Positions 1 to 24,684 of a stretch of DNA of 35,528 nucleotides are shown here, piece after piece. Made by a program: the position numbers and the translations under genes. The DNA comes from Fibrobacteria bacterium (GTDB lineage Bacteria > Fibrobacterota > Chitinivibrionia > Chitinivibrionales > FEN-1185). Every line of letters begins with the position of its first letter. Position 1 is the stretch's first letter. The notes under the pieces are model-generated. The model made no database searches, was not told the DNA's origin, and was given only the letters and a program-made list of their open reading frames with translations. Where the stretch lies: assembly GCA_037447435.1 (NCBI GenBank), contig JBBIGR010000047.1, positions 1 through 35,528 on the forward strand. Reading direction: 5' to 3'.

Positions 1-52
1 GTACCATGCCGGATCAAACGATAATGGGGTGCCGAATGGGCAAGAATAGGCA
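1..52 (-). mobile_element. Probable IS21-family terminal inverted repeat (partial, runs off the window edge)
   Basis: Minus strand reads TGCCTATTCTTGCCCATTCGGCACCCCATTATCGTTTGATCCGGCATGG: TG terminus plus ATTCGGCA/ATCCGGCA repeats 23 bp apart, as in IS21-type ends. It coincides with the point where the DUF2779 ORF stops looking like its family. Confidence 0.6.
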
Positions 53-1567
53 GATAAACGCCATCAATTCGTCTCTGTCTTTGACTTTGGTTGCATTCTC
101 AAGTGCCAGTTGCCGGTAAATCTGAGCAAGAAAAGTATTCTCGTGACAATGATATCGAAATATTGAGCCATTGTCTTTACTAAGCTGGTTTTTTAATTCA
201 CGCAAAAACGCGTAGTTTGGGAAAACGCCAGGTTCAAAAGAAATAAACTGGCCAGCATGAGCTATGTTTCCATTCTTGGAAACCATATGATGCGAAAACT
301 GAAATGCTATACCCTCATATGGGCGACGTCCGCAGTAAAAAGGTAATGCACTTGTACATGTTTCAAAGTCTATCAAATGCAGCGGATACACCCATTCGGC
401 AATTTCATCACGAAGGCCATTCCTGTCAAGATACGGGGTTTCATCGCCATCTTTACTCTTTTTAATTTGAAGCATTCTTCGTTCATGCGGTGAAAGCCCG
501 GTTTTTTTATTTTCGGTAATCACTTTAGGCCTTATGTCAACTTCACGAAGGTTTTTAAGAAAATATTTACCATCCTCAATTAAAGGAGTCTTTCCTCGAA
601 ACCCGGAAGACCACAAGTCAAGGGTAAGTGGTTTGTCGAAATCTGCATCCTTAAAATTAGCCAGACGCTTCCAGCATTCATGAAAACCGCTTTTCAATCC
701 CTGATCCATCTCCTCGGGAGTTGCACTAAATTCACAGTCTTTGCAATTTCCGCGTAAAGGCGAGTCGATGCGTTTATCGTTTTTGTAATTGTCTGCCAAG
801 AACCGGAGGTATTTCTCGAATTCCATTTCTTCGCCATTAGGCCGTACAATTGGGTGTGTAAAAATCCATTCTGCTGCCTGGTCTGTGTCGATTTCCACGA
901 GGATGTCGTTTCCAAGGTCTTTTTTCGTTAGTCCAGGTTCTATGACGACTTTGGTTCTATCATTCTCATCAACAATTTTAAATCTCTGATTCAGGCCATC
1001 AACACTGGCAACAGCATCCTTGTCAACCAGAAGCAAAAATGAGCGGACGGTTACGCCCTGTTTTTTAAGTGCATTCTCGATAACCCATTTCTGAAATACC
1101 ACATCATGCACATAATCGCTGATTTCGCTATCGATCCCTTTGATCTCACCGGATTTTTTGCTTTTCATGATTTGTCGATCACGTTGCCACGACTTTGATT
1201 TGACTTCGTAAAGGTATACAGTTTTATTTTTTTTGACAACAATATCGCATCGGACAAAAAAATTCTCGAATTTAAATGCAGGCTCGGCTATCACAACCTC
1301 TCCAGAAGCCTTTAAACGCTCATGGGTCTGTTCTATGGAGGTATCGTAGTCCAATGATGTAATAGTGATCTTCTGGCCATAGGGATCGTCGCAGAAACGG
1401 AACTTGGCAAGTTCACCAACCTGAAACCCTCCATTGGCCAGGGCCTGGAGAAACGTGTCATCCAGTTTCTGATTGGCATATTCCTTTTTATTGGTAAAAA
1501 AGAGTTTGGTTTCGCAATCAAGTGCAGTCTTGAAACGGGATTTTGTCAGGTATCGAGGTTTAGGCAT
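14..1567 (-). pseudogene. DUF2779-domain protein (Cas4-like PD-(D/E)XK nuclease plus RNase H-like domain), probably C-terminally truncated
   Basis: N-terminal YLTKSRFKTALDC, nuclease motif RCDIVVK..LYEVKS, CKDC..C cluster, then LHLIDFET..RRPYEGIAFQFSHH. ATG at 1567 has a purine-rich RBS. The ORF ends abruptly after ELMAFI. Confidence 0.75.
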
Positions 1568-1735: not shown

Positions 1736-1768
1736 ACGACAATATCTGTCGTCCATGTCGGGTATCTT
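1736..1768 (+). promoter_or_regulatory. WYL-type operator/promoter box 1 (pcfJ-like gene)
   Basis: ACGACA-ATATC-TGTCGT (1736-1752), N10, TATCTT (1763-1768). Confidence 0.75.
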
Positions 1769-1807
1769 ATCCTGTAAATGCTGTTATTATAAAAAAAGGA
1801 TAATACC

Positions 1808-3091
1808 ATGATGATTATAAGCTCATCAAAAGCTTCAATTCTACAATTAAAACAATGGAAACCGGATCCCGCTTCCTTGCGGGAAGAAATATGGTTTGAT
1901 GACATTAATAAATATTTGTATATAGATTTCAGAAAAACCTGTGCCACCTGTCTAAAAATTGCAACATGGGACAATGGACTGTATGTTGAGCGTTGGAACC
2001 AGGTTCTTGAAACCTGGGAATCAGAAGAATGGGATCCAGGAATTCCAATACCACTACCAAAAGCTGGAATGGTTTTTTCACTCGACGAATTTTTTAGCGA
2101 TATTCCCAAAGAAGTTATTCGTGCGATAACACCTTTCAAATGGCGTCAATTTGTGCTTCTTAGGATGATACGGCATTTTCCTGAGACCATGGAACTTTTG
2201 CAAAGCAATCCGTTATTAGCTTGGTTTTGTGCCGATTCTATTGCAGAAATAGAGATTCCGGTTTCAGAGGTACGTAATTTGTTAATGAAAAAGCGCAGAG
2301 ACATTTGTGGGTTTATTGGCTTATCATCCACAGATGCCATGGTGAAACTGCTTGGAAAAATGAGAGCAGAAGAATACAGCCAGGAACTTTTGAATGATTT
2401 AAAATCGCTTTTACACGAAAAAGAAAATGTAATTAGGCTGCGTCATGTAAAGCATATTCCTGCGGATGAAATACTGAACCTTTATAGTCGTTTCGATTAT
2501 ATGATTTGGGCTTTGTCAACAGTTGATAAAAATGGCAAAACAGTGTGGAGTGAAATGTTGGATAGTGCCACAAAGTTTGGCTACAGAATCTGGTCTGATA
2601 CAAAAGCTCTTGGAAAAGACCTTTGTGTTGATAATCCTCAAAAACGTATGTCTCTTTGTAAAACATTTCGGGAATTACATAAACTCCACAACGATTGGTC
2701 TGCAAAGCTTTCAATAGAACGTGCGCATTGGCGGGCGGAAGAATTTTTTAAAGAGCACGGAACATATTCTTTTCCAAATCCACCAATTGCAGGAGATTTG
2801 GACATCGTGCCTATAACAACGATTTCCGACTTGCTTAATGAAGGTGCGGATATGAGACATTGTGTTGGTTCTTATGCAGACAGCATCATGGATGGTGATT
2901 GTTATATCTACCAGGTTCTAAAACCTCAGCGAGCCACCTTGGAGATTACAAAATCAGGAGAGGGAATGCGGATTTCGCAATTGAAACTAATCTGCAATGG
3001 GGAACCGTCTCTTGAAACCTGGTCAAAAGTAAAAATGTGGTTGACTAGTGCGTTGTCGCCGGCAGAACAGACCCGATTAGAATTTGTTTAA
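1808..3091 (+). CDS. PcfJ-like domain protein
   Basis: C-terminal LLNEGADMRHCVGSY..CYIY..RATLEI..ISQ..CNGEP signature; RBS AAGGA upstream. Confidence 0.8.
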   Translation: MMIISSSKASILQLKQWKPDPASLREEIWFDDINKYLYIDFRKTCATCLKIATWDNGLYVERWNQVLETWESEEWDPGIPIPLPKAGMVFSLDEFFSDIPKEVIRAITPFKWRQFVLLRMIRHFPETMELLQSNPLLAWFCADSIAEIEIPVSEVRNLLMKKRRDICGFIGLSSTDAMVKLLGKMRAEEYSQELLNDLKSLLHEKENVIRLRHVKHIPADEILNLYSRFDYMIWALSTVDKNGKTVWSEMLDSATKFGYRIWSDTKALGKDLCVDNPQKRMSLCKTFRELHKLHNDWSAKLSIERAHWRAEEFFKEHGTYSFPNPPIAGDLDIVPITTISDLLNEGADMRHCVGSYADSIMDGDCYIYQVLKPQRATLEITKSGEGMRISQLKLICNGEPSLETWSKVKMWLTSALSPAEQTRLEFV

Positions 3092-3099
3092 AAACTTTC

Positions 3100-3126
3100 C
3101 CCTCAGTCTCCCTGAGGGAGCGTTTT
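3100..3126 (+). terminator. Possible intrinsic terminator between the convergent pcfJ and WYL genes
   Basis: CCCTCAG-tctcc-CTGAGGG hairpin followed by agcgtttt. Confidence 0.45.
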
Positions 3127-3242
3127 AGAACCTATATCTGGATTTGTTTTGCGTATATAAAATATAATGTAAACTAATCCCATGCGAAGCATGAGGTGAT
3201 GTGCTCGCTAGAAGGAAAGGCGAGATTTCAGGCCGATGACAA

Positions 3243-4283
3243 TTACTTTCCATATTTCTTCGTCAATGTTTTTGCTACTACCTTCATTTCATTAATAAGT
3301 TCTTTTGGCTCCATCACAACAGCCTTGGGCCACGACAAAACCCAATTTATCAAGCCAAGCCCCACAGGTACATTCATGGTCAAAAGAAGGCCGGTTTTTT
3401 TATTTCCGGATATTTTTTGCGAGGAATGGAATTTCTTTTCAGTAAAAATCAACTTGTAATAAGGCTCGTAAGGAAAACGGACCGTAACTTTACATACCTT
3501 GGGTTCCACTCCATCGAACATGGCAAAGCTATTAGCCAGACGATCTTCGATTCGTTTGATTCGTTTGGGATCGGGAGTAAAAGTTTCGTTTAGCAGTTTC
3601 GCTGTTACAATCCTGCTGATTTTAATATAAAAATCCTTATCAATCTTTTCCGAAATGCAAACAAAATACAGCTCACCACAATAAAGCAGTAGCTTTGCAG
3701 GGCAAATAATTTTCTCGTAAGGTTCCTCCGAATTTCCGGAATGATAAAGAATTTCCAGCTTTTGTCTTTTAACAAGTGATGTTAAAATATTGTTGAAATT
3801 ATCATCTTTCATGGTCACTGTCGATTTTTCACCGAGCTGGAAGGTTGATTCTTCAAGTCGTTGGTCCAAATCGCCAAAAATGGTATCGTAGTCAACTTTT
3901 GAAGTATGGTCTGTCAAAGCCTCGGTAATATTGGCAATTGATTTTGCATCAGCTGGGAAAAAGGGTTGAAGCCGTTTTAAAAGGAAATATGCCAATAGCC
4001 CATTTTTCTGAAGCGGTACACTGACTTTTAACCGCATATCCGGTTGAATGCCATATTTGTTTTTACTATTTTCTGGTATGCAAATGACCGGAATACCTTC
4101 GATTTCTGTGAGTGCTTTAAGATCCCGCTGAACGTTTCGTAAGGTAACTGGTCCGTCTTGTTCCAGGAATTCAAGAATTTCCTGAACAGAATAGGTTTTG
4201 TTCTTGTTTCGAACAAAATGACAAAAGATTTGCACTAGCCGTTCGCCGCGAGGTGTTTCTGTTTCTTTTCCCATAGTATCCAT
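3243..4283 (-). CDS. WYL-domain transcriptional regulator (wHTH-WYL-WCX)
   Basis: wHTH VTLRNVQRDLKAL; WYL core ICPAKLLLYCGELYFVC..FYIKISRI; WCX LINWVLSWPKAVVMEPKEL. Likely start is ATG 4283 or 4274; the track start at 4313 lies inside the operator. Confidence 0.9.
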   Translation of the reverse strand: MDTMGKETETPRGERLVQIFCHFVRNKNKTYSVQEILEFLEQDGPVTLRNVQRDLKALTEIEGIPVICIPENSKNKYGIQPDMRLKVSVPLQKNGLLAYFLLKRLQPFFPADAKSIANITEALTDHTSKVDYDTIFGDLDQRLEESTFQLGEKSTVTMKDDNFNNILTSLVKRQKLEILYHSGNSEEPYEKIICPAKLLLYCGELYFVCISEKIDKDFYIKISRIVTAKLLNETFTPDPKRIKRIEDRLANSFAMFDGVEPKVCKVTVRFPYEPYYKLIFTEKKFHSSQKISGNKKTGLLLTMNVPVGLGLINWVLSWPKAVVMEPKELINEMKVVAKTLTKKYGK

Positions 4284-4290
4284 CCACTTT

Positions 4291-4324
4291 ATTATAAACG
4301 AAACTTGCGACAAATGTTGTCGCA
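4291..4324 (-). promoter_or_regulatory. WYL-type operator/promoter box 2 (promoter of the WYL gene)
   Basis: TGCGACA-AATGT-TGTCGCA (4306-4324). On the minus strand TGTCGC-N10-TATAAT (4296-4291), with an ATG 7 nt further on. Confidence 0.8.
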
Positions 4325-4394
4325 GAATGAATCATACAAATAATACCAGATTTTGATAAATAAAGCAATGAATTATTTGTTTCGGAAAGAAAAG

Positions 4395-4427
4395 GCGACG
4401 TTAGTTGTCGTAGAACTGAAGGATATT
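4395..4427 (+). promoter_or_regulatory. WYL-type operator/promoter box 3 (HD gene)
   Basis: GCGACG-TTAGT-TGTCGT (4395-4411), N10, GATATT (4422-4427). Confidence 0.7.
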
Positions 4428-4522
4428 AATCCTATTGCAAATTTAGAATAACCGGGGTATAATGAACCGTAGTCCTTTCTTTCCGGCATTTGTTACTCAC
4501 CTCCAATATAGGTATTCTTTTA

Positions 4523-5208
4523 ATGCAACATGATTTTCAACAGCAGATACTTTCGATTTTGTCCGAAGTCAAAAGAGAAAAGATAGATGGACTTATTCGT
4601 TTCCTTGAAGTGTCTGATTTCTTCACTGCTCCGGCATCAACAAAATATCACTTGGCATATGAAGGCGGTCTGGCAGAACTGTCCAGGGATGTTTACATTG
4701 TATTCAATGAAAAATGTATGGCATATTCCCTTGAATTCGACAAAGACTCCATTACTTTATGCGGATTGCTCCACGATATCTGCAAGACAAATTTCTATAG
4801 AAAGGGGATAAAGAACGTCAAGGAAGATGGAAAACGGATAGAAAAAGATGTCTGGATTGTTGAAGGCAGTTTCCCATTTGGTCACGGAGAAAAGAGCGCA
4901 TACCTTTTGCAGAAATACATCAAGCTTTCGGATGAGGAAGCCCTGCAATCAGGTGGCATATGGGTTTTACCGAGCCCAAAGCGCTGCACCGGCAAATGGA
5001 TCAGGCTGGAGAAAAATATCCGGTACTCATGGCGCTGAATATCGCGGATCTTGAGGAGGCGTTTTTGGTGGAGGGGAGGGGGGGGATAAAGGTGATTTTT
5101 ATGAAAAATTCTCAATGGCCTTTGAATACCTTCATTCTACCAAGAATGTATACCTGTCTCTGGTACGAAAAAAACATTAATAAAAAAAGTTTGAAATCGG
5201 GATGTTGA
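4523..5208 (+). pseudogene. HD-domain hydrolase (phage/MGE type), frameshifted
   Basis: DFFTAPASTKYHLAYEGGLAE, LLHDICK, FGHGEKS motifs. Adding one G near 4945 joins ORFs 4490..5038 and 4960..5208 into EEALAIRWHMGF. The usual GGLxxHS His reads Leu. The 3' end is uncertain. Confidence 0.75.
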
Positions 5209-5281
5209 AGACATTTTGAATGCTGAACCAAAAAAATAAATTTGTTCATACCAAATGACTTTTTTTTAAGGATGAAATAAT

Positions 5282-6346
5282 ATGGATGTCAAGGTTGGAG
5301 AAGATTCAAAAGGTGTATTTGCAATAGTTTATGGACCTAACGGTGTGCGGTGGTTAAGAGGTGCTACTGCGCAAAAATACGCGGAACATTCAGGTTTTGG
5401 ATCTGGATCTCATTCTTCTACTACTTTGGGTTATTTATCCGTGGCAACAGATGTGATTAATGCTGTTGCGCGACTTGGGCAATGGTATGAAATGCATCAA
5501 ATGCGCTTATTAGAAGAAGCACAATTTGAGGAAAGACGAATAAATTGGCTTGTAAGCTGTGTGAATCTCGTCCTTAATGACATGCATGCGAATAGTCGCT
5601 TAAATGCGAAGGCGGCATTTTATCTATCGCGTGAGGCGGAAGGACTTTACGAGGTCTGTGAAAAAAACTCAAAAGTAGGTATTCCTGGAACGGTCCTATT
5701 TATGTGCCACGAAATTCGCCAAAGCCTTGCTGAATTTAATATCGCTTCCTATTCCTACCTTTCGGATGTTCTAAACAAACGAGGTAACCTTGGTATAGGT
5801 AAATCTATTTATCGTGAAACGCTTGGAAAAATTCTTGGAGACGTTCAATTGCCAAGTGACGCTTCATGGCTTGAATATTATTCCGCTGAGGACCAGTTAG
5901 AAGCAATGTTGGGCTTGGTAGCCGAAAAGAAATCAATCGAAATTAACTGGAAAGATATAGCAAAGAGCGCTGTTTTATTGGCAGCATTTGTGCCGACTCC
6001 TATATTTTGGGCCAGTGGGGTTGCAATGCGTGTCCTTTATACTACTGGAACTATGTCACGTGGGGCGGTTGCAGCATTTGGTATACAACCACTCATACAA
6101 ATTGTTACAAATATCATCAATAGCAAGAATGATTCAAAACAAATGCAATTGATTGGTGAATATCATGATCTGCTATTATTGCGTTTTGAGGCTGCAAATA
6201 CTGCGCGACTGCTTTCAGTACAAGAACGATTTTTAGAAGCAACAGGAGAAAAGAATGTCGTACTTATAGGGAAGGAAAGTGCGATTGCTACACCCCAGTT
6301 AAATTATATAACCAGGCAAAATCTTGGTCTTCTGGAAAGGAAATAG
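5282..6346 (+). CDS. Hypothetical protein with hydrophobic, probably membrane-inserting helices
   Basis: 354-aa ORF with upstream AAGGATG; hydrophobic segments SAVLLAAFVPTPIFWASGVAM and GAVAAFGIQPLIQIVTNII. Confidence 0.65.
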   Translation: MDVKVGEDSKGVFAIVYGPNGVRWLRGATAQKYAEHSGFGSGSHSSTTLGYLSVATDVINAVARLGQWYEMHQMRLLEEAQFEERRINWLVSCVNLVLNDMHANSRLNAKAAFYLSREAEGLYEVCEKNSKVGIPGTVLFMCHEIRQSLAEFNIASYSYLSDVLNKRGNLGIGKSIYRETLGKILGDVQLPSDASWLEYYSAEDQLEAMLGLVAEKKSIEINWKDIAKSAVLLAAFVPTPIFWASGVAMRVLYTTGTMSRGAVAAFGIQPLIQIVTNIINSKNDSKQMQLIGEYHDLLLLRFEAANTARLLSVQERFLEATGEKNVVLIGKESAIATPQLNYITRQNLGLLERK

Positions 6347-6353
6347 GTATATT

Positions 6354-7328
6354 ATGCGATTTGCCACAGTTATTGTCAAAGGACAAAGCGCAAAAAATGG
6401 CATGGAAAATATTGAGCGATCTAAACTTGTAGATGCGGTAGTGAGAGCAGTTTTAAAAGGTAAGTTCGCTCCGCTCGATTGCTTGGTCTTTCCTGGCGGT
6501 TTTTTCAGACATGACAAACACATTGGTAATTTTGACTTCCAAAACCGCAAAAGATCGATAGAAAAAGAGAAATTCTCGCGCGAATGTACCAATGCAGCTT
6601 TCAAGTTGTCGAATTCTAAAGTTAAGACTTTTCTGGTATGCGGAGTTGATACACATGATAGCCTTGAGCTTGATGATTCCTGCGACCAGCTTGCAGTTGC
6701 TTGGAATTCTAAGGAAATTGTAGGGATCGGGAAGAAAGTTTGGCCGTCACCGGGAGAGCAATGGGACATAGGTACCTACACAGACGATTATGCAACTGAC
6801 CATAGAATTATCAGGTTCAATAATGAAAGAACAGCTGTGCTATGTGCCTGTTATGATATTTATGGTATCTCTGAAACACCAGTAAATCCGACTGGCAGAA
6901 CTAATTACATCCACTACATTAACACAAATCCGAAAAAGGGCACCTATATAACGGATGAAGATGGTCCTAACCCGGCATTTAAGATTGTACGTTCGTCATG
7001 TGTAGCATCGTTTCAAGATTTGCTGAAACGTAACAATGTTACGATTGCTATTTGCCCGGTACATGGCTTTAAAAAAAACGAATCTGATTTGTACTTTCAG
7101 AGGTTCGGCTTCGCTGTGAGTGCAACATATTTGAAGGGTATAACTATAGGCGCAGCCCATTACGCACCGAAACGTTTCCCACCCAAAGGAAAAGATGTCG
7201 TACTTGCTGCCAAGCCAGGTAACTGGAAAATCGGCAACTTGCGAAAGCATATTGAGACCAACACTTTTCACCCCGCCAAGACCATTAATCTTGCTGATGC
7301 ATTAATTCAAATATTTGAGTTTGTCTAA
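6354..7328 (+). CDS. Divergent carbon-nitrogen hydrolase (nitrilase-fold) protein
   Basis: DCLVFPGGFF (cf. DLVVFPE), IGKKVWP (cf. YRK) and AVLCACYD (cf. GxxICYD) occur in nitrilase order. ATG 6354 follows 7 nt after the upstream stop. Confidence 0.6.
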   Translation: MRFATVIVKGQSAKNGMENIERSKLVDAVVRAVLKGKFAPLDCLVFPGGFFRHDKHIGNFDFQNRKRSIEKEKFSRECTNAAFKLSNSKVKTFLVCGVDTHDSLELDDSCDQLAVAWNSKEIVGIGKKVWPSPGEQWDIGTYTDDYATDHRIIRFNNERTAVLCACYDIYGISETPVNPTGRTNYIHYINTNPKKGTYITDEDGPNPAFKIVRSSCVASFQDLLKRNNVTIAICPVHGFKKNESDLYFQRFGFAVSATYLKGITIGAAHYAPKRFPPKGKDVVLAAKPGNWKIGNLRKHIETNTFHPAKTINLADALIQIFEFV

Positions 7329-7427
7329 ACTTTTGAGCTGTATAACTATAAGTAAATAATGTTATGAGTTGATGTTGTCAATTAGCAAAAAACGTGAAAA
7401 CAAAAATTCTGATTATGATGGGTAAAG

Positions 7428-8687
7428 ATGGCCAGCAAATCAAAAACGATTCGTAGAAACATGCAACACCTCCAACATAATGGTGTCAAGCCACTTGCGG
7501 TAATAGGCAATAGGTCGGCACGCGCTGATTATTGGCGGATCAAAAATTGTATTTGGATTGCTCTTCATAATCAAAAATATGACATCAGGATTGAATACAA
7601 AATTCCCGAAATATCAACGCGGATAGAAGCTTATAAGTGTAAGTCGTATTACAAGCAATTGAAACGTATTTACAATTTGCTATTGCGATATGCTAAAAAC
7701 AGTAATAGTCTGAAAACAGACATGATCGGACATAGTGGTCACTTGGAAGATTGCGATGTTGTTCTTTTTCGTTGCAATCAGGTTGTAGAGCTTGATGAGT
7801 ATCACCACTTTAATAGTTTAAGAGGCAAGGTGCTTGATCTTTATCCCTCTAATCTGCCGTTAGCATTTAATCTCAAAGCGTATCAGAAAAAATGCACTGG
7901 GGCTAATATAAACGTTGTAAGTATTTGGAATGATGTGTTACGCGACTTTCTGCCTTGGATTGTTGGAATAAACCCTACAGTACGGATTGATGTTTCGGCA
8001 ATTTCGAATTCAATTTTTTATTTATCTGCCACAGATGTACTCAATTGTGTTATGGCTTCAGACGCTAAAATTAAATTTTTCAAGAGGAAAAAAGGGAGAA
8101 TATCATGTGGCAAATATTTAGATTCTGTATCCCGAAATGTAGATGAAGAAAAAAACATCATTTATAAATACCTTTTGGACAAATATAAAAAAGTCTGGTG
8201 GGGATACCCAAGTGGAGCACATGCGAAGCTAAGTGGATATCAAAACAGTAAGGCATATTCCAATTTGAAAGAAATCTATTCGGCTTTAGAAATTCAAAAG
8301 AAAAAGGTGAAAATTGGTAAATCCTTGCTATCAAAATGTGATATTTACATACCTGGCGAGAAGAGAATAGTTGAGCTGGATGAGGTAAGACATTTTACTG
8401 AGCCTAGGGCTACAGCGTTGAAAAACTACCCAAAGAAATTAAAAATTGCCTTTGATAAAGATGAGTATTCTGACTTTTGCAGCCAAATCAATTTAAAGGA
8501 TAACGATCCCCCAAATCGCGATGAGCAGAGGGCTTGGTTTGATACATTGAGAGACTTTTTGCCACTAAGCAGTGGTGAGTATAAACCAGTTATTAGAATG
8601 CCACTTTTTGAAACGAAAAAGACCAATTTGCCACTAGACAAAAGGTCAATCATTACTCGCCTCGAAAATGGTCTAAAAATTGTTTAA
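7428..8687 (+). CDS. Protein with two tandem Vsr-like/PD-(D/E)XK nuclease domains
   Basis: Duplicated motif CD..VELDE..HF..R..L..YP..AF..Y..C..W.D.LRDFLP in ~aa 38-190 and ~aa 241-392. Confidence 0.7.
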   Translation: MASKSKTIRRNMQHLQHNGVKPLAVIGNRSARADYWRIKNCIWIALHNQKYDIRIEYKIPEISTRIEAYKCKSYYKQLKRIYNLLLRYAKNSNSLKTDMIGHSGHLEDCDVVLFRCNQVVELDEYHHFNSLRGKVLDLYPSNLPLAFNLKAYQKKCTGANINVVSIWNDVLRDFLPWIVGINPTVRIDVSAISNSIFYLSATDVLNCVMASDAKIKFFKRKKGRISCGKYLDSVSRNVDEEKNIIYKYLLDKYKKVWWGYPSGAHAKLSGYQNSKAYSNLKEIYSALEIQKKKVKIGKSLLSKCDIYIPGEKRIVELDEVRHFTEPRATALKNYPKKLKIAFDKDEYSDFCSQINLKDNDPPNRDEQRAWFDTLRDFLPLSSGEYKPVIRMPLFETKKTNLPLDKRSIITRLENGLKIV

Positions 8688-9026
8688 TCTGCCCACTATT
8701 CAGGAATAGAATCCACCTGAGGTTTCCGGAATGGAAGTTTGATAATAAAGAAATGTTTATAATTCGGAATTGTTTAGATCAGATCCATAGCATCGCAGGA
8801 CTTAAAAAAACATCCACTTAAAATGTTGATTTTAAAACACTAAAGATCGTTACTGCCCTGTTTCCTTTTGAAATTATCGACGTGCAAGGATTAAGGAAAA
8901 GGCAATTAACAAAAGCGTGTTTAACCCAAATATCAACCCGCAAGCAAACCACACTGTTTATCCGGGAATGCTAACCTTTTTATGAATTTTTATTCACATC
9001 GCCAGCTTCTTTAAAATAAATTGGCT

Positions 9027-9059
9027 ACGACAATATCTGTCGCGCCTCCCTGCGATATT
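9027..9059 (+). promoter_or_regulatory. WYL-type operator/promoter box 4 (AAA+ gene)
   Basis: ACGACA-ATATC-TGTCGC (9027-9043, 16/17 identical to box 1), N10, GATATT (9054-9059). Confidence 0.75.
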
Positions 9060-9104: not shown

Positions 9105-11339
9105 ATGCTATCTAAAATTCCGGACAAATCCAAAGACGACGATTTTTTATACAAAAAAAAACATGATTATGTAATTAGATGCCTTGAATATTTGGGCACT
9201 ATTCCCAATGACGAAATACTTGGAGTTACGCTAAAATTTATTTCGCCAACATCAAAAAAGAAAATATTCGATTCGGTTCTCAAAGAGGCAAAAAAGACAA
9301 ACTCTATGTCGAAAAGTATGATTAATGAATTGGATTGGGAAAAACGCACCTATAGGATTGATGGAGGTCTTGAGCAATTAAATAATAAAGAAACACTTAG
9401 CCCATTAATATTTGAAGGTGTTTTCAAAAGTATAAAATCTTTGAAAACTGGATCAATCAAATTATCACTTAAGAATGGATTTAAAACAAAAATAGAATCT
9501 GTCAATAATATATTTGGCTTAAGTCAAATCGAATCTGAAGTGGTTTTGTTTTTGTATCTTTACAATACCAATTCAACCGTTGAGCGTTTGTATGATGAAA
9601 TGTGCTCCTATCTGGACATAAGAACGAACATCATTGCAGGAAAAAGCGTGCGGCTGCTTTCCATATTGACTGGCATGTCCAGAAACGATTTGGGCAAGGC
9701 ATTTTATGAAGGTTCAACTCTTGTAAAAGCTGGTTTGCTCAACGATGACCGCGAATTAGCTCCAGAGTTAACAGAATTCCTTGAAGGTAATAGTCCTACG
9801 CCTATCAGCAGTAAATACTTCTCACAATTTTCCGGTGAGACCATTCCATTTGAAAATCACACGGTGGAAAAGCAACATATCGAAACCATTCAAACTATTG
9901 TTTCGCACAAGATCCCCGGGCATGGAATTAATGTGCTTTTATATGGCAAGCCGGGTACCGGTAAAACAGAATTTGCCCGGGCTTTGGGAAAGCATCTCAG
10001 CAAAGCTGTTTATGAGGTGAAAATCCTGTCTGAAGACAGTAGAAACGACCGGAATTGGAGCATGTTCCGATCACGTGCACTCTATGCATGCCAACGAACT
10101 GTTGATCTTGAAAAGTCACTTGTCATAGTAGACGAGGCCGATGAACTTCTTAATACCGAATTTACTTCCATGTATTCCCGCAATATAGAAAAAGGGCAAA
10201 TTAACAAAATTCTTGATGATTCAAAAGCCGTTATAATTTGGATTACCAATTTGTCCTGCCTCATCGAGGAATCCACAATGCGGCGTTTTGATTATTCTAT
10301 TGCCTTCGACAAATTGACTTTTAACCAGAGGAAAAGTGTATGGCAACTTGGATTGGAAAAATATAGCCTTTCAACTACGTTCTCCCCGGATGAAATAGAT
10401 TCGTTTACCAATAATTATGAAATCAGTGCAGGTGGCATTGACGTTGCATTACGAAATGCAGCTAGGATAAAGGCTTCTGGTGTTGAAAAAACATCGATAA
10501 TTTCTGTGATGGAAAATATCATGAAAGCTCACGTGAAAGTTATTGATGAACAAAAATCACCGGCAGATCTGAAAAAAACCAATGCTCCGTCTTACAGTCT
10601 CGATGGATTAAATATAAAGACCGATATACCGGTAACTTTGAAGGTTATTGACAGATTTAATTCCATATGGAATGGCCCTCAGGAAAATATGGCCATAAAA
10701 AATATGAATTTATTACTCTATGGACCTCCCGGAACCGGCAAAACCGAATTTGCAAAATATATAGCCCGTTCTATGAATCGTCGACTAATTGTGAAAAGGG
10801 CAAGTGACCTTTTGAATTGCTATGTAGGGGAGACCGAACAACTTATCCGGACAGCTTTTTCCGAAGCCGAAAAAGACAAGGCAATTCTGTTTATCGACGA
10901 GGCAGACAGCATGCTTGGTACGCGTGAAGGCGCCAGCCATTCCTGGGAAATATCTTTTGTGAATGAAATGCTCACAAACATGGAATCCTTTTATGGCATG
11001 TTAATATGCTCAACAAATTTTAAAAAGGTTGTAGATAGTGCTGCAATACGGCGGTTCAATATCAAGCTGGAATTCGATTTCCTTTCGCCGCAAGGTAATC
11101 TTGTTTTCTATAATCTATTTCTAAAAAATCTTTCTGTAGCAGGTCTTTGCGATAAAGAGCTTTTAAAACTATCAGGTCTATATGGGCTTACTCCAGGAGA
11201 TTTTAAAGTGGTTCATCAGAAAAACGTTCTTATGGATAAATGCGATTTGTCCCATGAGCGGCTCATTGCAGCTCTAGAGGGTGAACTGTATGCGAGGAAT
11301 GAAAATTATGGGAAAAAGATAGGTTTTGTAGGTACGTAA
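9105..11339 (+). CDS. AAA+ ATPase with two AAA modules
   Basis: Walker A GKPGTGKT and GPPGTGKT, Walker B IVDEAD and FIDEAD, Arg fingers MRRF and IRRF, C-terminal KIGF; RBS AGGAGG. Confidence 0.9.
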   Translation: MLSKIPDKSKDDDFLYKKKHDYVIRCLEYLGTIPNDEILGVTLKFISPTSKKKIFDSVLKEAKKTNSMSKSMINELDWEKRTYRIDGGLEQLNNKETLSPLIFEGVFKSIKSLKTGSIKLSLKNGFKTKIESVNNIFGLSQIESEVVLFLYLYNTNSTVERLYDEMCSYLDIRTNIIAGKSVRLLSILTGMSRNDLGKAFYEGSTLVKAGLLNDDRELAPELTEFLEGNSPTPISSKYFSQFSGETIPFENHTVEKQHIETIQTIVSHKIPGHGINVLLYGKPGTGKTEFARALGKHLSKAVYEVKILSEDSRNDRNWSMFRSRALYACQRTVDLEKSLVIVDEADELLNTEFTSMYSRNIEKGQINKILDDSKAVIIWITNLSCLIEESTMRRFDYSIAFDKLTFNQRKSVWQLGLEKYSLSTTFSPDEIDSFTNNYEISAGGIDVALRNAARIKASGVEKTSIISVMENIMKAHVKVIDEQKSPADLKKTNAPSYSLDGLNIKTDIPVTLKVIDRFNSIWNGPQENMAIKNMNLLLYGPPGTGKTEFAKYIARSMNRRLIVKRASDLLNCYVGETEQLIRTAFSEAEKDKAILFIDEADSMLGTREGASHSWEISFVNEMLTNMESFYGMLICSTNFKKVVDSAAIRRFNIKLEFDFLSPQGNLVFYNLFLKNLSVAGLCDKELLKLSGLYGLTPGDFKVVHQKNVLMDKCDLSHERLIAALEGELYARNENYGKKIGFVGT

Positions 11340-11463
11340 TTCAATGTAAGTAATTATTGGGGGAGAGTCCAGAATTGTGTTTGAGAAAATTGTTGTTTAA
11401 AAAGATAAAGGAGTAAAATAGTATGGTCGGAATTTCAGCAATTTACTGTATTGGAGGAATAGG

Positions 11464-11583
11464 TTGATTTCATACTGTAATAACTATCCATCTCCAGAAA
11501 CGATTGAGTATGACGACCACTGGATTGCGATGTGCGAGATAGCGGAGCGGGAACGAATTATGGAAGAAAATGTAAACAAATAG
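11464..11583 (+). CDS. Possible 39-aa small protein (below the ORF-track cut-off)
   Basis: GGAGG at 11453-11457, TTG start, MISYCNNYPSPETIEYDDHWIAMCEIAERERIMEENVNK. Confidence 0.3.
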   Translation: MISYCNNYPSPETIEYDDHWIAMCEIAERERIMEENVNK

Positions 11584-11613
11584 TATACTTGAATCCAAAA
11601 AATTATAATGAAT

Positions 11614-13254
11614 TTAGTTTGATCGGGTGTTTTTCCGCAAAAGTTTTTCCATGAAATTCTTTCCGGAGTTTGCTTTTACGGAGTTGAATAACCCAGCTTT
11701 TTGATTTATTACATAGTCCTGCATAATAGCTTCAGGCGATTCCTTCGTAATTTTGGAATGAACTGATTGCAAGGCTTCAAGTAATTCGCTTGCGGTTTGA
11801 TAACGGTTTTCGGGATCTTTTTCAAGACTTTTTGTTATAATTGGTGAAAGGTCTTTGGGGACACCCTTCCTGAATGTGGAAATATCCTGAAACGTATTCT
11901 CTTCACGAGCTTTATAGAGATCCTGCATTTTCAATTGAGGAAAAGTCAATTTTCCAGTAATCATTTCATATATTGTTGCGCCCAGTGAATAAACGTCTGT
12001 CCTTTTATCCACGTTGTTTGTTTTCAATTGCTCCGGTGACATATAGGGGAGCGTACCAATTACATTGTCCAGCTTTGTGTTAATTGAAACTTCGGTTGGG
12101 CGGGCTAATCCAAAATCAGAAAGTTTTACTATACCATCTTTAGAAATGAGAATATTGTGCGGTTTAATATCACGGTGCATGATGCCGTTGTAGCGTTCTC
12201 CATAAATACTGCAAACTTTTTTATGGGCATAAGCCAGCGCTCTGGCGCTAAAAATTGAAATGGATGTTATTACTTCAAAAGGCAAAGCCCCTTTGCTATC
12301 GAGAAATGTTTTTAAATCAAAACCGTCTATATATTCCATTTCGATATAGGGGAGCCCCATGAACTCGCCATATGCATAAATGTCCACAATATTTGAATGA
12401 CGAAGTTGAGCCGTTATTTTGGCCTCAATTTCAAAACGTTTTTTCATTGATTCAAATTCTTCAGGAGAAGAACAAAAAAGATGCAGAAGAATAACTTTAA
12501 CGGCACGATGGACTTCAAGAACCTCATTTTTAATCAAATATATTCGTGCTGTTCCACCTTGTCCAATAACCGCCGTTGTACATCCTGACCCAAGCATTGT
12601 TTTATTGTCAATATCCGGCAGATGCACGGATTGAATGTTTTTAAACCGGTCTAAGGAGCTAACAATCTGTGTTGTGTTAATTGATTTTGTTGTTTGTTGC
12701 TGATCTTCTACAAATGTTTTACTAACCGAAAAAGGATTTTCTTTTTTAGATTCATCGAGAGTAGTTGTTGCTTTTTGACCTGTAGAAACGCTTTGTCGAA
12801 GTTCCAGCTTACTATTTTCTTTTTTAGCGATAGTTGTTGTGTTCCACCAGGCTACTAATTCCTCGATGTCGTTGACAAAAGGTTTAACTCGTTTAGGGAA
12901 ATTTGTTCTAAGTATTTCCGCCCCGCCTTCACGGACGCTTTTCCGAAGCATATTTACCCATTTGAGAGCTGCAACTTTAAAAATATCGTCGGTGTTATAA
13001 CAGGAGACAAAATTATCGTACCCGTATGCTTGATAAGCCCACAATAGGTCAGTCATAACGGGAATAAATTTTAATACTATTTCGGGGATTTCTGGTTTAG
13101 TTTTTGCTTCATAACTGTTAAACCATATTTGAACTAAGTGCATCCAGGATTTTATATCGTCAATAGCAGGGTAAAGCCCATTCTGCCATTCCGTCGGGGG
13201 TACTTCATTTTTAAAAAAGTCTTTCAGACTTCCGGATTTGCGGCCGTTATTCAT
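11614..13254 (-). CDS. Cytoplasmic Hanks-type Ser/Thr protein kinase with an unknown N-terminal domain
   Basis: IGQGGTARIY, RAVK, HRDIKPHN, DFG, GTLPYMSPE, DVYSLG; no TM helix. Confidence 0.92.
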   Translation of the reverse strand: MNNGRKSGSLKDFFKNEVPPTEWQNGLYPAIDDIKSWMHLVQIWFNSYEAKTKPEIPEIVLKFIPVMTDLLWAYQAYGYDNFVSCYNTDDIFKVAALKWVNMLRKSVREGGAEILRTNFPKRVKPFVNDIEELVAWWNTTTIAKKENSKLELRQSVSTGQKATTTLDESKKENPFSVSKTFVEDQQQTTKSINTTQIVSSLDRFKNIQSVHLPDIDNKTMLGSGCTTAVIGQGGTARIYLIKNEVLEVHRAVKVILLHLFCSSPEEFESMKKRFEIEAKITAQLRHSNIVDIYAYGEFMGLPYIEMEYIDGFDLKTFLDSKGALPFEVITSISIFSARALAYAHKKVCSIYGERYNGIMHRDIKPHNILISKDGIVKLSDFGLARPTEVSINTKLDNVIGTLPYMSPEQLKTNNVDKRTDVYSLGATIYEMITGKLTFPQLKMQDLYKAREENTFQDISTFRKGVPKDLSPIITKSLEKDPENRYQTASELLEALQSVHSKITKESPEAIMQDYVINQKAGLFNSVKANSGKNFMEKLLRKNTRSN

Positions 13255-15028
13255 ATTTTTTTAATAGTTGTTTAGCTTTTAAGCACTTTTCGGTTTCATT
13301 CCGGCCACATGATTCTTTAATAAATTGATTATAGGCATCAAGCATGTCTTTTTTGCTTGCAGAGTCCTGTAATGTGTTGAAATTATTAAGGTAAATATCA
13401 GCCCGTTCATACAGGATGTCTTCCCTTGAAACTTCACCAATTCGAGTAGGGGCTACGGCAGCTTTGTCTATGTAGAGCATGGCTTTTTGATTGTTCTGCA
13501 TAACTTTAAAAGCCCTTGCAATAACCCAGTAATATCGTGCATCATTCACGTCGTAATGTTTACTAATACCAATAACGTCTTTTATTGAATGGGTCATATA
13601 ATATGAATCTGTCAATAGAATAACAGCACTGTCTCTTGTGGCAGAAGGCAAATTTTTAAATCCGGATTCTTGAATAAGGTTAATAACATCAGAGTATTTT
13701 CCGTTTTCATGGGCTGTTATTGCCTTAAAAAGAATAGAACTCTCTGCAATATGCTGGACTTTTTCCGGGATTATTTGGAATGGTTTAGCTGGCTTCAGTT
13801 TGGGCTGTTGAACTACAGACAGGCTTGCAGTAGTTTCCGTCCTAGGTGGCTTAATATCTGTTATTGCTGGTAAAGAATCTGTTCTGAGGACTGGTGAATT
13901 TACAACAGCGATTGTATCTTTCAGTGCTATCGCTTCATGCTTTTCAAGTTTATTTTTTGTTAAAAACCAGGAACCTGTCAGCAATAAAACAAGTAAAGGA
14001 AAAATAATAGCGATCAATTTTACGGGAAATTTCTTTTTTATACGAAATTTATCGACATCAATATTCGGGCGGTATTTTACGGGGTCGGCGGAGAATTGAT
14101 TTACAATTTCAGCTGCAGACTGATCTGTCAGGGTCTTAAGAACGTTGTTTGCAAATTCTTTGACCTCTTTATACGTCTGAATTCTGTTTTCGATTTTTGG
14201 TTCAAGGCATTCTCTCACAAGAGCAACAGCCATTTCAGGAGCTGATGGATTGGATTCCAAAACAGAATCATATTTTCCTTCATGCTTTGCGGAAGATGCA
14301 TCGTCCGGATTGCCGGGGAACGGACGAGCGCCGCAAAGCATTTCATAAAGAATTATACCTAAAGAAAAAATATCACTTCGGCAATCAACCGTTTTATTAT
14401 CATGTTGTTCGGGGCTCATGTATTCTACAGTGCCCCAGCCGGTGAAATCTTTTTCATCGCCTGTTTTGGCAAGTCCAAAATCTGCAACCTTTAAACCACC
14501 GGTCCTGGAGAACAATATGTTTTCTGGTTTTAAATCACGGTGTACAAGTGTCTCAGATGAACTGCCCCAAATTGAAAAAGATTTTGTACTGGCGTAATCC
14601 AAGGCATCTGCAATAACAGAAACTATGGATAATGCGATTATTGGATGCACTCTGGTTAATGCATCGAGCAATAATCGGAGCGACTTTCCATTGACCAATT
14701 CCATTTGGATAAAGGGGAGATTTTGAAATACTCCGCCCCCATAAACTCTCACAATGTTGGGATGGTCAAGACGGGCGGTTATTTTTCCTTCGGCCTCAAA
14801 TTTTCTTCGTAGTTGTTCAGGTTTCCCGGGTCTTAGAATTTTAATTGCCCGTTCCATTTCCAGGTCCACATCAAAAGCCCTATAAACCACACCCATGGCT
14901 CCGCCACCAATTTCTGCAATAATGCGGTAATTGCCTACCATGTCACCGGAATTAAGGGGAGGAGATACGTTTCCACCACTCGAGAGTGCAGATATGTGTT
15001 GAGAGATGTCGTTTTTAGAGTCTATCAC
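13247..15028 (-). CDS. Membrane Ser/Thr protein kinase with extracytoplasmic TPR-like region
   Basis: IGGGAMGVVY, RAIK, HRDLKPEN, DFG, YMSPE; TM LIAIIFPLLVLLLTGSWFL; Pro-rich linker; helical repeats at the C-terminus; GTG start. Confidence 0.92.
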   Translation of the reverse strand: MIDSKNDISQHISALSSGGNVSPPLNSGDMVGNYRIIAEIGGGAMGVVYRAFDVDLEMERAIKILRPGKPEQLRRKFEAEGKITARLDHPNIVRVYGGGVFQNLPFIQMELVNGKSLRLLLDALTRVHPIIALSIVSVIADALDYASTKSFSIWGSSSETLVHRDLKPENILFSRTGGLKVADFGLAKTGDEKDFTGWGTVEYMSPEQHDNKTVDCRSDIFSLGIILYEMLCGARPFPGNPDDASSAKHEGKYDSVLESNPSAPEMAVALVRECLEPKIENRIQTYKEVKEFANNVLKTLTDQSAAEIVNQFSADPVKYRPNIDVDKFRIKKKFPVKLIAIIFPLLVLLLTGSWFLTKNKLEKHEAIALKDTIAVVNSPVLRTDSLPAITDIKPPRTETTASLSVVQQPKLKPAKPFQIIPEKVQHIAESSILFKAITAHENGKYSDVINLIQESGFKNLPSATRDSAVILLTDSYYMTHSIKDVIGISKHYDVNDARYYWVIARAFKVMQNNQKAMLYIDKAAVAPTRIGEVSREDILYERADIYLNNFNTLQDSASKKDMLDAYNQFIKESCGRNETEKCLKAKQLLKKYE

Positions 15029-16071: not shown

Positions 16072-16090
16072 CGGAGACATTTTTTCACAA

Positions 16091-19909: not shown

Positions 19910-20026
19910 AAAATGTTGGTACATGTGATCAGAATCACAGACGAGAATGGAATCTATGGCTATTTTCTAATAGTATCATAGGTAGAAATTTTCTATTTGC
20001 TTGAACTAATCTGAAGGATAAAATAA

Positions 20027-21805: not shown

Positions 21806-21808
21806 GTT

Positions 21809-22357
21809 ATGCGTATAATAATATTTTGCTGTTTGCTGTTTGCTACAATTTCTTATTCGGCTGATAATCTAGCCCCCTCACACACACCTTCAACCAATAG
21901 TTTTATTGGCAAAACATATACACGCATTAAAGATGTCGACTCTTTACTTACTTCGGGAGCATTTGGCACTCTTAACAAAGACGGGGCTTATGCGGTAAGT
22001 ATTCATGGAAGCAAACGCGTTCTTGACAATTCAAGATATCCAAGATTTAATTATGTGTTTTTTACAAAAACCATAGGATACGAAAACAAAAAATCGATAT
22101 TGAAAATATTAGATGTTGTTACAATTGATGCGCATGACTTTAACGATAGCGCAACCATACGGCTAGATGAATGCAATTGCAAAGTCCAAGATCAATGCCA
22201 GACAGTTTCTGTTTATAATGCAGAAAGTAAATTGCTTAAAAACGGAAAAAAGATTAAACCTATCAAAATTTGGGAACCTAACATTGCTACAGGAAAGCTT
22301 GAAGAGAAATCCCCAGATAATTTCCAATGCGGACCAATGGAACCTGACGAACAATGA
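21809..22357 (+). CDS. Exported hypothetical protein (putative immunity protein)
   Basis: Signal peptide MRIIIFCCLLFATISYS; starts 3 nt after the M23 gene stop; four Cys in the mature part. Confidence 0.65.
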   Translation: MRIIIFCCLLFATISYSADNLAPSHTPSTNSFIGKTYTRIKDVDSLLTSGAFGTLNKDGAYAVSIHGSKRVLDNSRYPRFNYVFFTKTIGYENKKSILKILDVVTIDAHDFNDSATIRLDECNCKVQDQCQTVSVYNAESKLLKNGKKIKPIKIWEPNIATGKLEEKSPDNFQCGPMEPDEQ

Positions 22358-24572: not shown

Positions 24573-24605
24573 AAAAAAAGCCTCCTGTTTTCACAGGAGG
24601 CTTTT
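24573..24605 (-). terminator. Intrinsic (probably bidirectional) terminator after tRNA-Pro
   Basis: AAAAGCCTCCTGT-tttc-ACAGGAGGCTTTT with a T7 run on the minus strand. Confidence 0.85.
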
Positions 24606-24606
24606 A

Positions 24607-24684
24607 TGGTCGGTGTGGCGGGATTTGAACCTGCGACCCCTACCACCCCAAGGTAGTGCTCTAGCCGGGCTGAGCCACACACCG
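24607..24684 (-). tRNA. tRNA-Pro (GGG)
   Basis: CGGTGTG acceptor stem, anticodon arm CTACC-TTGGGGT-GGTAG, T-loop GGTTCAAATCC, encoded CCA. Confidence 0.97.

What the first reader, a model, noticed from the sequence alone, without database searches (positions are those of the whole stretch)
1736..9059. Four-copy palindrome with fixed -10 spacing suggests an island-encoded WYL regulon
Seen: RCGACR-N5-TGTCGY at 1736, 4307, 4395 and 9027, all intergenic. In each case the downstream TGTCGY half-site is exactly 10 bp from a (T/G)ATNNT hexamer (TATCTT, TATAAT, GATATT, GATATT) facing pcfJ, WYL, HD and AAA+ respectively. Known: the Caulobacter WYL activator DriD binds a CGAC-N7-GTCG-type palindrome, and mycobacterial PafBC promoters have the form TGTCGG-N10-TA-N3-T. 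Inference: this WYL protein is a nucleic-acid-sensing activator using PafBC-like promoter geometry to switch on a dispersed PcfJ/HD/AAA+ regulon, in a lineage far from those models.
Basis: partly seen in the sequence, partly recalled or inferred. Interest (0 to 1): 0.85.

Follow-up and report, generated by a model that had tools for sequence, protein, structure and literature searches.

The report
DriD-type WYL switch on genomic island
Four copies of a 17-base palindrome sit exactly 10 bases before promoter-like sequences in a mobile DNA island, and they are likely the docking sites of the island's own WYL regulator, which would switch on poorly understood island genes when DNA is damaged, a kind of switch already known from Caulobacter and Acinetobacter.

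Summary
The four boxes and their 10-bp spacing to a -10-like hexamer are in the sequence. A fifth box lies on contig C44, which shares a 61-bp tRNA-Pro repeat with the window and is probably the other arm of the same island. Around relatives of this WYL gene, 52 of 63 boxes chosen by palindrome alone have TANNNT at spacer 10, against 6 at 9 and 2 at 11. The bipartite site occurs in 96 of 296 Fibrobacterota genomes, 77 of which also have a detected relative of this WYL. The right model is DriD, not PafBC. The box matches the DriD/DdaA motif, the fold ranks DriD first, and published DriD promoters use the same 10-bp spacing. Differences: the targets are island genes (tandem AAA+ ATPase, PcfJ, ClpP-like protease, HD, unknowns), not recA or lexA; many boxes have -10s on both sides; one faces the WYL gene itself. 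The HD gene here is broken. Binding, activation and start sites are untested. The scan noted this circuit before on other DNA, including Fibrobacterota. New member of a known kind.

The parts
1736..1768 (+). Box 1 (palindrome 1736-1752), 10-bp spacer, -10-like TATCTT (1763-1768), facing pcfJ; no such hexamer at spacer 10 on the DUF2779 side
1808..3091 (+). PcfJ-like protein, 427 aa, predicted target; C-terminal ~100 residues weakly GNAT-like (Z about 6, a lead only)
   Evidence: Pfam PF14284 E 1.9e-12; model pLDDT 85
3243..4283 (-). wHTH-WYL-WCX regulator, 343-346 aa (ATG at 4283 or 4274); recognition helix with R46, Q49, R50, D51; WYL pocket Y177, Y203, K218, R221
4291..4323 (-). Box 2 (4307-4323), 10-bp spacer, -10 TATAAT (4291-4296), facing the WYL gene; first ATG begins 7 bases after the hexamer
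4395..4427 (+). Box 3 (4395-4411, one mismatch to RCGACA), 10-bp spacer, GATATT (4422-4427), facing the HD gene
4435..4463 (+). Second, canonical-looking promoter of the HD gene: TTGCAA, 17 bp, TATAAT
   Evidence: read; TTGCnn and TAyAAT kept in L043, L044, L045
4523..5208 (+). HD-domain hydrolase gene, broken: first motif His replaced, frameshift near 4945; intact 188-190 aa relatives at 51-64% identity
9027..9059 (+). Box 4 (9027-9043), 10-bp spacer, GATATT (9054-9059), facing the tandem AAA+ gene
9105..11339 (+). Tandem AAA+ ATPase with N-terminal winged-helix domain, 744 aa, predicted target; commonest named target across the clade
   Evidence: Pfam PF00004 x2 and PF22977; below the cut-off of the IteA model
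14..1567 (-). DUF2779 protein, divergent from box 1; not faced by a spacer-10 hexamer here, but a homologue is in L037
22866..24400 (+). HTH_17 (excisionase-like) gene and tyrosine-integrase-like gene at the island's right end
   Evidence: PF12728; PF00589 E 5.5e-6, just under the curated cut-off
24602..24684 (-). tRNA-Pro(GGG) at 24607-24684; 61 bases (24602-24662) repeated exactly at G000:C44:19114-19174, the likely attachment sites of an island of at least 43 kb

Best explanation
The four palindromes are likely the operators of the island's own WYL protein, which is predicted to be a DriD/DdaA-type homodimer that would activate these promoters after binding single-stranded DNA. Shown: each box RCGACA-N5-TGTCGY lies 10 bp upstream of a -10-like hexamer, so it covers about -39 to -23, the place of a -35 element, and these promoters have no good -35. 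Inferred from DriD: R46 and R50 of each winged helix read the guanines of the two half-sites; ssDNA from DNA breaks or incoming phage or plasmid DNA binds the WYL pocket (Y177, Y203, K218, R221) and frees the winged helices; the dimer binds the box and holds sigma70-RNA polymerase on the otherwise weak promoter. The output would be a damage-induced set of island genes (tandem AAA+ ATPase, PcfJ-like protein, HD hydrolase, a receiver-domain protein on C44; in relatives a ClpP-like SDH protease and an unknown 150-aa family), most likely stress or anti-phage accessory functions, beside an untouched chromosomal LexA/RecA system. Odds: the boxes are this protein's operators about 0.95; it activates rather than represses about 0.78; ssDNA is the signal about 0.75; the targets are defence functions about 0.45.
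For: Spacing: among 63 distinct boxes (up to 1 mismatch, chosen by palindrome only) in 553 kb of WYL-relative loci, TANNNT stands at spacer 10 on 69 of 126 sides, against 7 at spacer 9 and 2 at 11; 52 of 63 boxes have it on at least one side. Co-occurrence: box+N10+KATNNT is in 10 of 61 relatives, namely 8 of the 9 with a clade WYL of 36% identity or more, one with a WYL fragment on the same contig, and one stray; the spacer-11 version is in 2 of 61. In the phylum, 96 of 296 genomes have the site and 88 a WYL relative; 77 have both and 189 neither; the reversed-pattern control gave 7 hits. 33 of 40 distinct WYL-gene upstream regions carry a box within 250 bp. Protein: R46, Q49, R50, D51, Y177 and R221 are invariant in 35 of 35, K218 in 34 of 35. 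These positions correspond to DriD R37/R41 (base reading, PMC10853764) and Y168, Y192, R204, R207 (ssDNA, PMC9186387); the WYL positions come from the HMMER alignment and flanking motifs, the helix positions from motif likeness only. PDB sequence search returns DriD (5 rows) then PafC; Foldseek ranks DriD E 2e-13, PafBC 1.5e-11, CapW/BrxR 8e-8 and weaker; VIA Z 14.6 (rmsd 3.5, 197 aligned) for DriD against 11.5 for CapW. No -35: the best match to TTGACA at spacers 16-18 is 3 of 6 or less in 80 of 81 promoter sides. Literature: DriD site ATACGAC-N7-GTCGTAT overlaps the -35 position at one distance from the -10 (PMC13004042); DdaA motif CGWCA-N5-TGWCG (PMC12392091). The repressor motif RWHVR (PMC11662680) is not in alignment A1.
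Against: No binding, expression or start-site data exist for this protein. A box over the -35 region could also block polymerase. The -10 hexamers are strong (TATWWT on 35 of 126 sides), stronger than in DriD promoters. DriD does not activate its own gene (PMC13004042), yet here one box faces only the WYL gene. The DriD R176 position is not conserved and R178/R204 are mostly Lys. Identity to DriD is only 14-16% and the model's linker/three-helix region has pLDDT under 50, so DriD's polymerase-contact residues could not be checked. 11 of 88 WYL-positive genomes lack an exact site and 19 site-positive genomes lacked a hit with that query; 2 of the loci checked from those carry a more distant clade member. 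Kin are not independent, so the co-occurrence overstates. Of 8 tandem-AAA homologues with enough upstream DNA, only 3 have a box with a facing spacer-10 hexamer within 450 bp; one has a box whose hexamer faces away, one has a box further up an operon, and 3 (including this genome's C49 paralogue) have none. A spacer-12 hexamer also scores on 24 of 126 sides, probably overlap with TATAnT runs.
Confidence: 0.75

Rival explanations
1. The WYL protein is a CapW/BrxR-like repressor: it sits on the box over the -35 region, keeps strong -10 promoters off, and lets go when it binds ssDNA. The net result, damage induction, would be the same.
For: The box overlaps polymerase's footprint; the -10 hexamers are near consensus; the box facing the WYL gene suits autorepression; WYL repressors are the ones known from defence islands (PMC9122601, PMC11662680).
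Against: Repression does not need one exact spacing, yet spacer 10 dominates 9 and 11 by 69 to 7 and 2. The promoters lack a -35, so there is little to repress. Motif, sequence hits and fold point to DriD before CapW/BrxR. BrxR's box is an 11-bp repeat downstream of the -10.
Confidence: 0.15
2. MerR-like twisting: the upstream half-site RCGACA is itself a -35 element 21 bp from the -10, and the bound dimer realigns the two.
For: At spacer 21 the hexamer matches TTGACA at 4 or more of 6 positions in 64 of 81 sides.
Against: That likeness follows from the operator sequence itself. In the DriD structures sigma4 docks at the usual -35 position on the face opposite the winged helix (PMC13004042). 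MerR spacers are 19-20 bp (recalled, no call).
Confidence: 0.04
3. True PafBC-like sigma adaptation: one winged helix reads the downstream half-site as a -26 element and the other contacts sigma4.
For: TGTCGY-N10-TANNNT matches the PafBC consensus tGTCgg(N10)tA(N3)T (PMC8635444); PafC is the next PDB hit after DriD.
Against: The upstream half-site is as conserved as the downstream one (though boxes were selected as palindromes), and one box often serves both directions. The genome has one WYL gene, so no PafB/PafC pair.
Confidence: 0.04
4. The boxes are chance palindromes, or belong to another factor such as LexA or a repeat element.
For: The bare palindrome is at background level genome-wide; the genome has two LexA-domain genes.
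Against: No box (best 4 mismatches) upstream of recA or either lexA. The bipartite site tracks the WYL gene across genomes and is missing from same-genus genomes that lack it (G002, G003, G005).
Confidence: 0.02

Closest known systems
DriD of Caulobacter crescentus (PMC9186387, PMC10853764, PMC13004042; PDB 8tp8, 9pfv)
   Same: wHTH-WYL-WCX protein of similar length; CGAC-N7-GTCG palindrome; site over the -35 position, 10 bp from the -10; no -35 consensus; two recognition-helix arginines; most ssDNA-pocket positions kept; a bidirectional promoter beside the regulator gene.
   Different: 14-16% identity; patchy, island-borne gene beside an intact-looking LexA/RecA system; targets are island genes, not didA, bapE, recJ, dnaG; near-consensus -10s; 17 of 63 boxes have TANNNT at spacer 10 on both sides and many face the regulator's own gene, whereas DriD fires one side only and not its own gene.
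DdaA of Moraxellaceae/Acinetobacter (PMC12392091, PMC13010146)
   Same: Motif CGWCA-N5-TGWCG, essentially this box, including the A/T variant seen in 7 of 81 sides; homodimeric activator; regulates anti-phage systems too. The paper says DdaA's forerunners regulated genes near their own locus, of unknown function.
   Different: DdaA is a vertically inherited global regulator of recA, uvrA, ssb; its site is reported about 50 bp upstream of start sites, not at a fixed 10 bp from the -10. No direct sequence comparison with DdaA was made here.
PafBC of mycobacteria (PMC8635444)
   Same: Downstream half-site at -28 to -23, 10 bp from TANNNT; R46/R50-type base reading; ssDNA-stimulated.
   Different: Heterodimer, non-palindromic site, sigma adaptation, about 150-gene chromosomal regulon.
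SiwR of Mycobacterium smegmatis (PMC10693628)
   Same: Homodimeric WYL activator of neighbouring genes through a palindrome between the -35 and -10 positions.
   Different: Different site (19-bp imperfect palindrome, conserved GGA at -26); one adjacent operon of DinB-like genes.
CapW and BrxR repressors (PMC11662680, PMC9122601)
   Same: WYL regulators on defence islands with bidirectional promoters.
   Different: Repressors with an RWHVR motif and different operators; weaker structural match here.

Membership tests
DriD/DdaA-type WYL activators | wHTH-linker/3HB-WYL-WCX architecture | tested here: met
   Pfam WYL and WCX; model with N-terminal winged helix; full-length Foldseek match to DriD. 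The three-helix region itself is low confidence.
DriD/DdaA-type WYL activators | Operator CGAC-N7-GTCG / CGWCA-N5-TGWCG at regulated promoters and beside the regulator gene | tested here: met
DriD/DdaA-type WYL activators | Operator over the -35 position at a fixed distance from the -10, no -35 consensus (DriD) | tested here: met
   spacer-10 peak; no TTGACA at 16-18; DriD promoter sequences in PMC13004042 methods. Start sites are inferred, not mapped.
DriD/DdaA-type WYL activators | Two arginines in recognition helix 3 | tested here: met
   R46 and R50 in 35 of 35
DriD/DdaA-type WYL activators | ssDNA pocket residues (DriD Y168, R176, R178, Y192, R204, R207) | tested here: inconclusive
   Y177 35/35, Y203 30/35, R221 35/35; Lys for R204 (34/35) and mostly Lys for R178; R176 position variable
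DriD/DdaA-type WYL activators | Homodimer | not tested
   No complex prediction run; implied by a single WYL gene and a palindromic site
DriD/DdaA-type WYL activators | ssDNA-dependent activation through polymerase beta and alpha-CTD contacts | not testable with these tools
   Needs biochemistry; contact region poorly modelled
DriD/DdaA orthologue (chromosomal DNA-damage regulon) | Boxes at recA and other repair genes | tested here: not met
   No box at recA or either lexA; all bipartite sites of the genome lie on C47 and C44; no repair gene among the target representatives scanned
DriD/DdaA clade by descent | Groups with DriD/DdaA in a WYL tree | not tested
   No tree built; nearest PDB hits are DriD
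PafBC | PafB plus PafC heterodimer on a non-palindromic -26 element | tested here: not met
   One WYL gene; sites are palindromes
CapW/BrxR repressors | RWHVR motif in the WYL domain | tested here: not met
   Not present in the 35 rows of A1; motif as named in PMC11662680

The most novel reading that the evidence does not exclude
Across Fibrobacterota a mobile DriD-type activator runs a modular, damage-induced accessory programme (tandem AAA+ ATPase, ClpP-like protease, PcfJ, HD and unnamed families) that is an undescribed defence or stress system. Its single symmetric operator fires two back-to-back promoters, one of them its own near-leaderless gene, giving a positive-feedback switch that DriD lacks. 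The 33-bp signature then works as a search handle for unknown inducible defence genes.
Probability: 0.3. Interest if true: 0.68.

Novelty: new member of a known kind. Interest (0 to 1): 0.42.

Why it matters
It extends the DriD promoter architecture, solved in 2026 in Caulobacter, to another phylum and to mobile islands. There the same 17-bp box and 10-bp spacer are kept across WYL clades only 26-30% identical and in about a third of the genomes searched. The signature is specific enough to list co-regulated genes of unknown function, which are candidates for damage-induced defence or stress proteins. Two-sided boxes offer a direct test of whether DriD's asymmetric binding mode can serve both directions from one site. 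The mechanism itself is known, so the gain is breadth and a target list rather than a new principle.

Tried and rejected
Palindrome alone as a genome-wide signal: at background. A chromosomal SOS-like regulon: no box at recA or lexA. A second WYL partner: none found. Sequencing runs: no RNA holder listed, only a possible source DNA run, so no expression or start-site test and no reads were laid. Viral contigs: 92 stretches match the bipartite pattern but only 1 has a clade-like WYL within about 3 kb, and no chance expectation was computed; not used as evidence. PcfJ function: Foldseek gave no match at E 0.001; VIA-wide gave many GNAT folds at Z 4.6-6.3 over residues 325-427, below the tool's noise range; the Atlas gave only PcfJ clusters. 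The 150-aa target family: no Pfam, NCBIfam or PHROG match and no usable Atlas hit. The AAA+ protein as IetA/IteA: 127 bits against a cut-off of 510, not assigned. Genes at 5282-8687: no box and no family except DUF7255; whether they are read through from the HD promoters is open. Literature searches for this system in print: Fibrobacter+WYL gave 2 CRISPR accessory-gene listings; WYL+activator+defense island+CGACA gave 0; one search listed 8 papers, none on this by title or abstract start; PcfJ searches gave nothing functional. Earlier-finding look-ups by sequence and by place returned nothing. No complex prediction and no tree were run.


Full report
Observation. The window is the whole contig G000:C47 of a 5.05-Mb, 45.6% GC genome. 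Relatives of its WYL protein are labelled Chitinivibrionales and Fibrobacterota, so the lineage is inferred from them. The four palindromes are at 1736, 4307, 4395 and 9027 (9 strand-matches at up to 1 mismatch, 8 from these boxes; shuffle mean 0.48). Each downstream TGTCGY is 10 bp from TATCTT, TATAAT, GATATT and GATATT, facing genes with Pfam PcfJ, WYL+WCX, HD and two AAA domains. The bare palindrome is not special genome-wide: CGAC-N7-GTCG occurs 93 times, like neighbouring spacers, and 5 of 10 strict sites lie elsewhere without the hexamer. With box at up to 1 mismatch and a -10-like hexamer, the genome gives 7 sides at spacer 10 against 0-4 at other spacers from 5 to 15.

The island. The fifth full site is at C44:167, with hexamers at spacer 10 on both sides; its right side faces a 125-aa receiver-domain protein. 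The window's first 24.6 kb are 39% GC and end in an HTH_17 gene, an integrase-like gene and tRNA-Pro(GGG). Sixty-one bases at the tRNA's 3' end are repeated exactly at C44:19114-19174, and C44's first 18 kb are 33-40% GC. I infer one island of at least 43 kb, split by an assembly gap; the window starts with a 52-55 bp repeat shared by many contig ends. All five exact or near-exact bipartite boxes of the genome then lie in one island. The genome has one WYL gene, two LexA-domain genes and recA, and none of those three has a box.

Conservation around relatives. The WYL protein has about 67 relatives at 36-73% identity. In 68 loci (553 kb) I took every palindrome with up to 1 mismatch and merged duplicates, leaving 63. 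TANNNT stands at spacer 10 on 69 of 126 sides, at 9 on 7, at 11 on 2, at 12 on 24; 52 of 63 boxes have it on at least one side and 17 on both. Of 41 distinct WYL upstream regions, 1 was too short, 33 had a box within 250 bp and 7 had none. Among the 33, the hexamer faces the WYL gene in 21, faces away in 23, and a single box serves both directions in 11. These loci include close kin and repeated samples, so they are not independent.

Co-occurrence. Among 61 genomes of the genus, family and order, box+N10+KATNNT is in 10: eight of the nine with a clade WYL, G016 (WYL fragment on the same contig) and one stray in G033. The ninth, G029, has a one-mismatch box (L092). The spacer-11 control is in 2 of 61. 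Across 296 genomes of the phylum, box+N10+TANNNT is in 96, with 7 hits for the reversed control; a sister-clade WYL query hits 88; 77 have both, 11 WYL only, 19 box only, 189 neither. Inside the largest genus the split is 56, 6, 5, 34. In loci from the box-only genomes, L251 and L253 carry a third, more distant clade member. The sister clade is 26-30% identical yet uses the same box and spacer and also faces a tandem AAA+ gene.

Targets. Of 81 promoter sides (selected for box plus hexamer, the window's and C44's included), 24 face a WYL gene, 9 a tandem AAA+ ATPase, 9 an unnamed family of about 150 aa, 5 PcfJ, 5 an SDH/ClpP-like protease, 3 HD, 2 an SGNH hydrolase, 14 single cases (DUF2779, HSDR_N, TPR, receiver, unknowns) and 10 no open frame found. 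Testing from the other side, homologues across the 81-genome order were checked for an upstream box. AAA+: of 11 other copies, 3 lacked upstream DNA; of the remaining 8, three have a box with a facing hexamer within 450 bp, one a box facing away, one a two-mismatch two-sided box further up an operon, three none. PcfJ: of 5 near-full-length copies (3 short matches left out), two have a box directly, two lie behind a box-faced AAA+ or WYL gene, one has none. HD: 1 of 1. So the regulon is real but mosaic. The window's HD gene is broken and has a second canonical promoter at 4435-4463, so box 3 is the least certain in function.

The protein. R46, N47, Q49, R50, D51 in the recognition helix and Y177, L202, R221 in the WYL domain are invariant in 35 aligned sequences; K218 is in 34. 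A profile search of the PDB returns DriD five times and PafC once. The AlphaFold model (mean pLDDT 72.6, pTM 0.35, residues about 80-155 poor) matches DriD first, PafBC next, CapW and BrxR last by Foldseek, and DriD first by VIA (Z 14.6, rmsd 3.5, 197 aligned; CapW 11.5).

Mechanism. Shown: box, spacing, absence of a -35 (80 of 81 sides match TTGACA at 3 of 6 or less at spacers 16-18), linkage to the WYL gene. Inferred: ssDNA binds the WYL pocket, the dimer binds the box and recruits sigma70 polymerase as DriD does. PMC13004042 reports that the DriD site overlaps the -35 position at one distance from the -10 in five promoters, and that DriD contacts the beta subunit and alpha-CTD. In its methods the promoter probe has ten bases between the TGTCGC half-site and CAATCT, and the authors' inserted TTGACA lies 17 bp before that hexamer. 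I read this as the same spacer of 10; the figure that marks the -10 was not visible to me. Repression is the main rival (0.15): it explains the strong -10s and the self-facing box, but not the strict spacing or the missing -35.

What differs from the models. The targets are island genes without recA or lexA. Two-sided boxes are common, whereas DriD fires only one side of its bidirectional promoter and not its own gene. In 10 of 24 WYL-facing sides, all from one close subclade, the first ATG begins 7-8 bases after the hexamer, against 1 of 47 other sides under 20 bases; this suggests a near-leaderless regulator transcript and is unexplained. Song et al. note that DdaA's forerunners regulated genes near their own locus, of unknown function, so local regulons of this type are already mentioned in print.

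Papers seen. Passages only: PMC10853764, PMC10693628, PMC13010146, PMC8635444, PMC9186387, PMC11662680, PMC9122601. PMC13004042: passages and two of three parts of Results. PMC12392091: passages and one section. No supplements or figures were read; Supplementary Fig. S4 of PMC12392091 may bear on novelty. Searches for this system in print found no description, within an open-access library only.

Earlier scan notes. After I had formed this reading, searches showed nine notes on other genomes that reach the same DriD/DdaA reading, two naming Fibrobacter or Fibrobacterota and one a WYL-controlled ATPase-PcfJ pair. They are unchecked notes, not support.

Verdict. Real and well supported as a WYL operator set; mechanism most likely that of DriD; new lineage and new, mostly uncharacterised targets. 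New member of a known kind, interest 0.42.

Noticed in passing
window 24602-24662 and G000:C44:19114-19174: Exact 61-bp repeat of the tRNA-Pro 3' end; joins C44 (1-19 kb, low GC, with serine-recombinase-like genes at 10075-12058) and the window into one island of at least 43 kb.
   Followed up: partly
window 1-55: A 52-55 bp sequence shared exactly by the ends of about 14 other contigs, and at 85% by about 14 more; probably an insertion-sequence end that breaks the assembly.
   Followed up: no
window 3123-3204: An 80-bp element between pcfJ and the WYL gene with 75-88% identical copies on at least eight other contigs; a dispersed repeat of unknown kind.
   Followed up: no
window 4523-5208: HD gene broken by a motif substitution and a frameshift, while three relatives are intact.
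   Followed up: yes
window 4274-4296; L041-L045, L062, L065, L082, L085: WYL genes of the closest subclade begin M-x-x-M with the first ATG 7-8 bases after the -10 hexamer; in relatives an AAGGA ribosome-site-like word lies between hexamer and ATG and would be cut by the predicted start.
   Followed up: partly
G000:C49:2621-4843: A second tandem AAA+ paralogue (46% identical) in an operon without a box, on a contig that also starts with the shared end repeat.
   Followed up: partly
window 11614-15028 and 15145-22357: Two Ser/Thr kinase genes (PADLOC PD-T4-6 models, generic kinase match), a 1272-aa PKD protein and a PG-binding/M23 protein in the same island, none with a box.
   Followed up: no
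window 5282-8687: Three co-oriented genes of 354, 324 and 419 aa with no family except DUF7255 in the last.
   Followed up: partly
L239:11185-12305, L241-L244: In family f13, a 173-aa protein of no PHROG family sits opposite the WYL gene behind a two-sided box in several genomes; a neighbouring box-faced 176-aa protein matches a Doc-like family.
   Followed up: no
L105 (G007:C483): A two-sided box between an intact HD gene and a long gene (over 440 aa, no Pfam match in the part held), away from that genome's WYL contig.
   Followed up: partly
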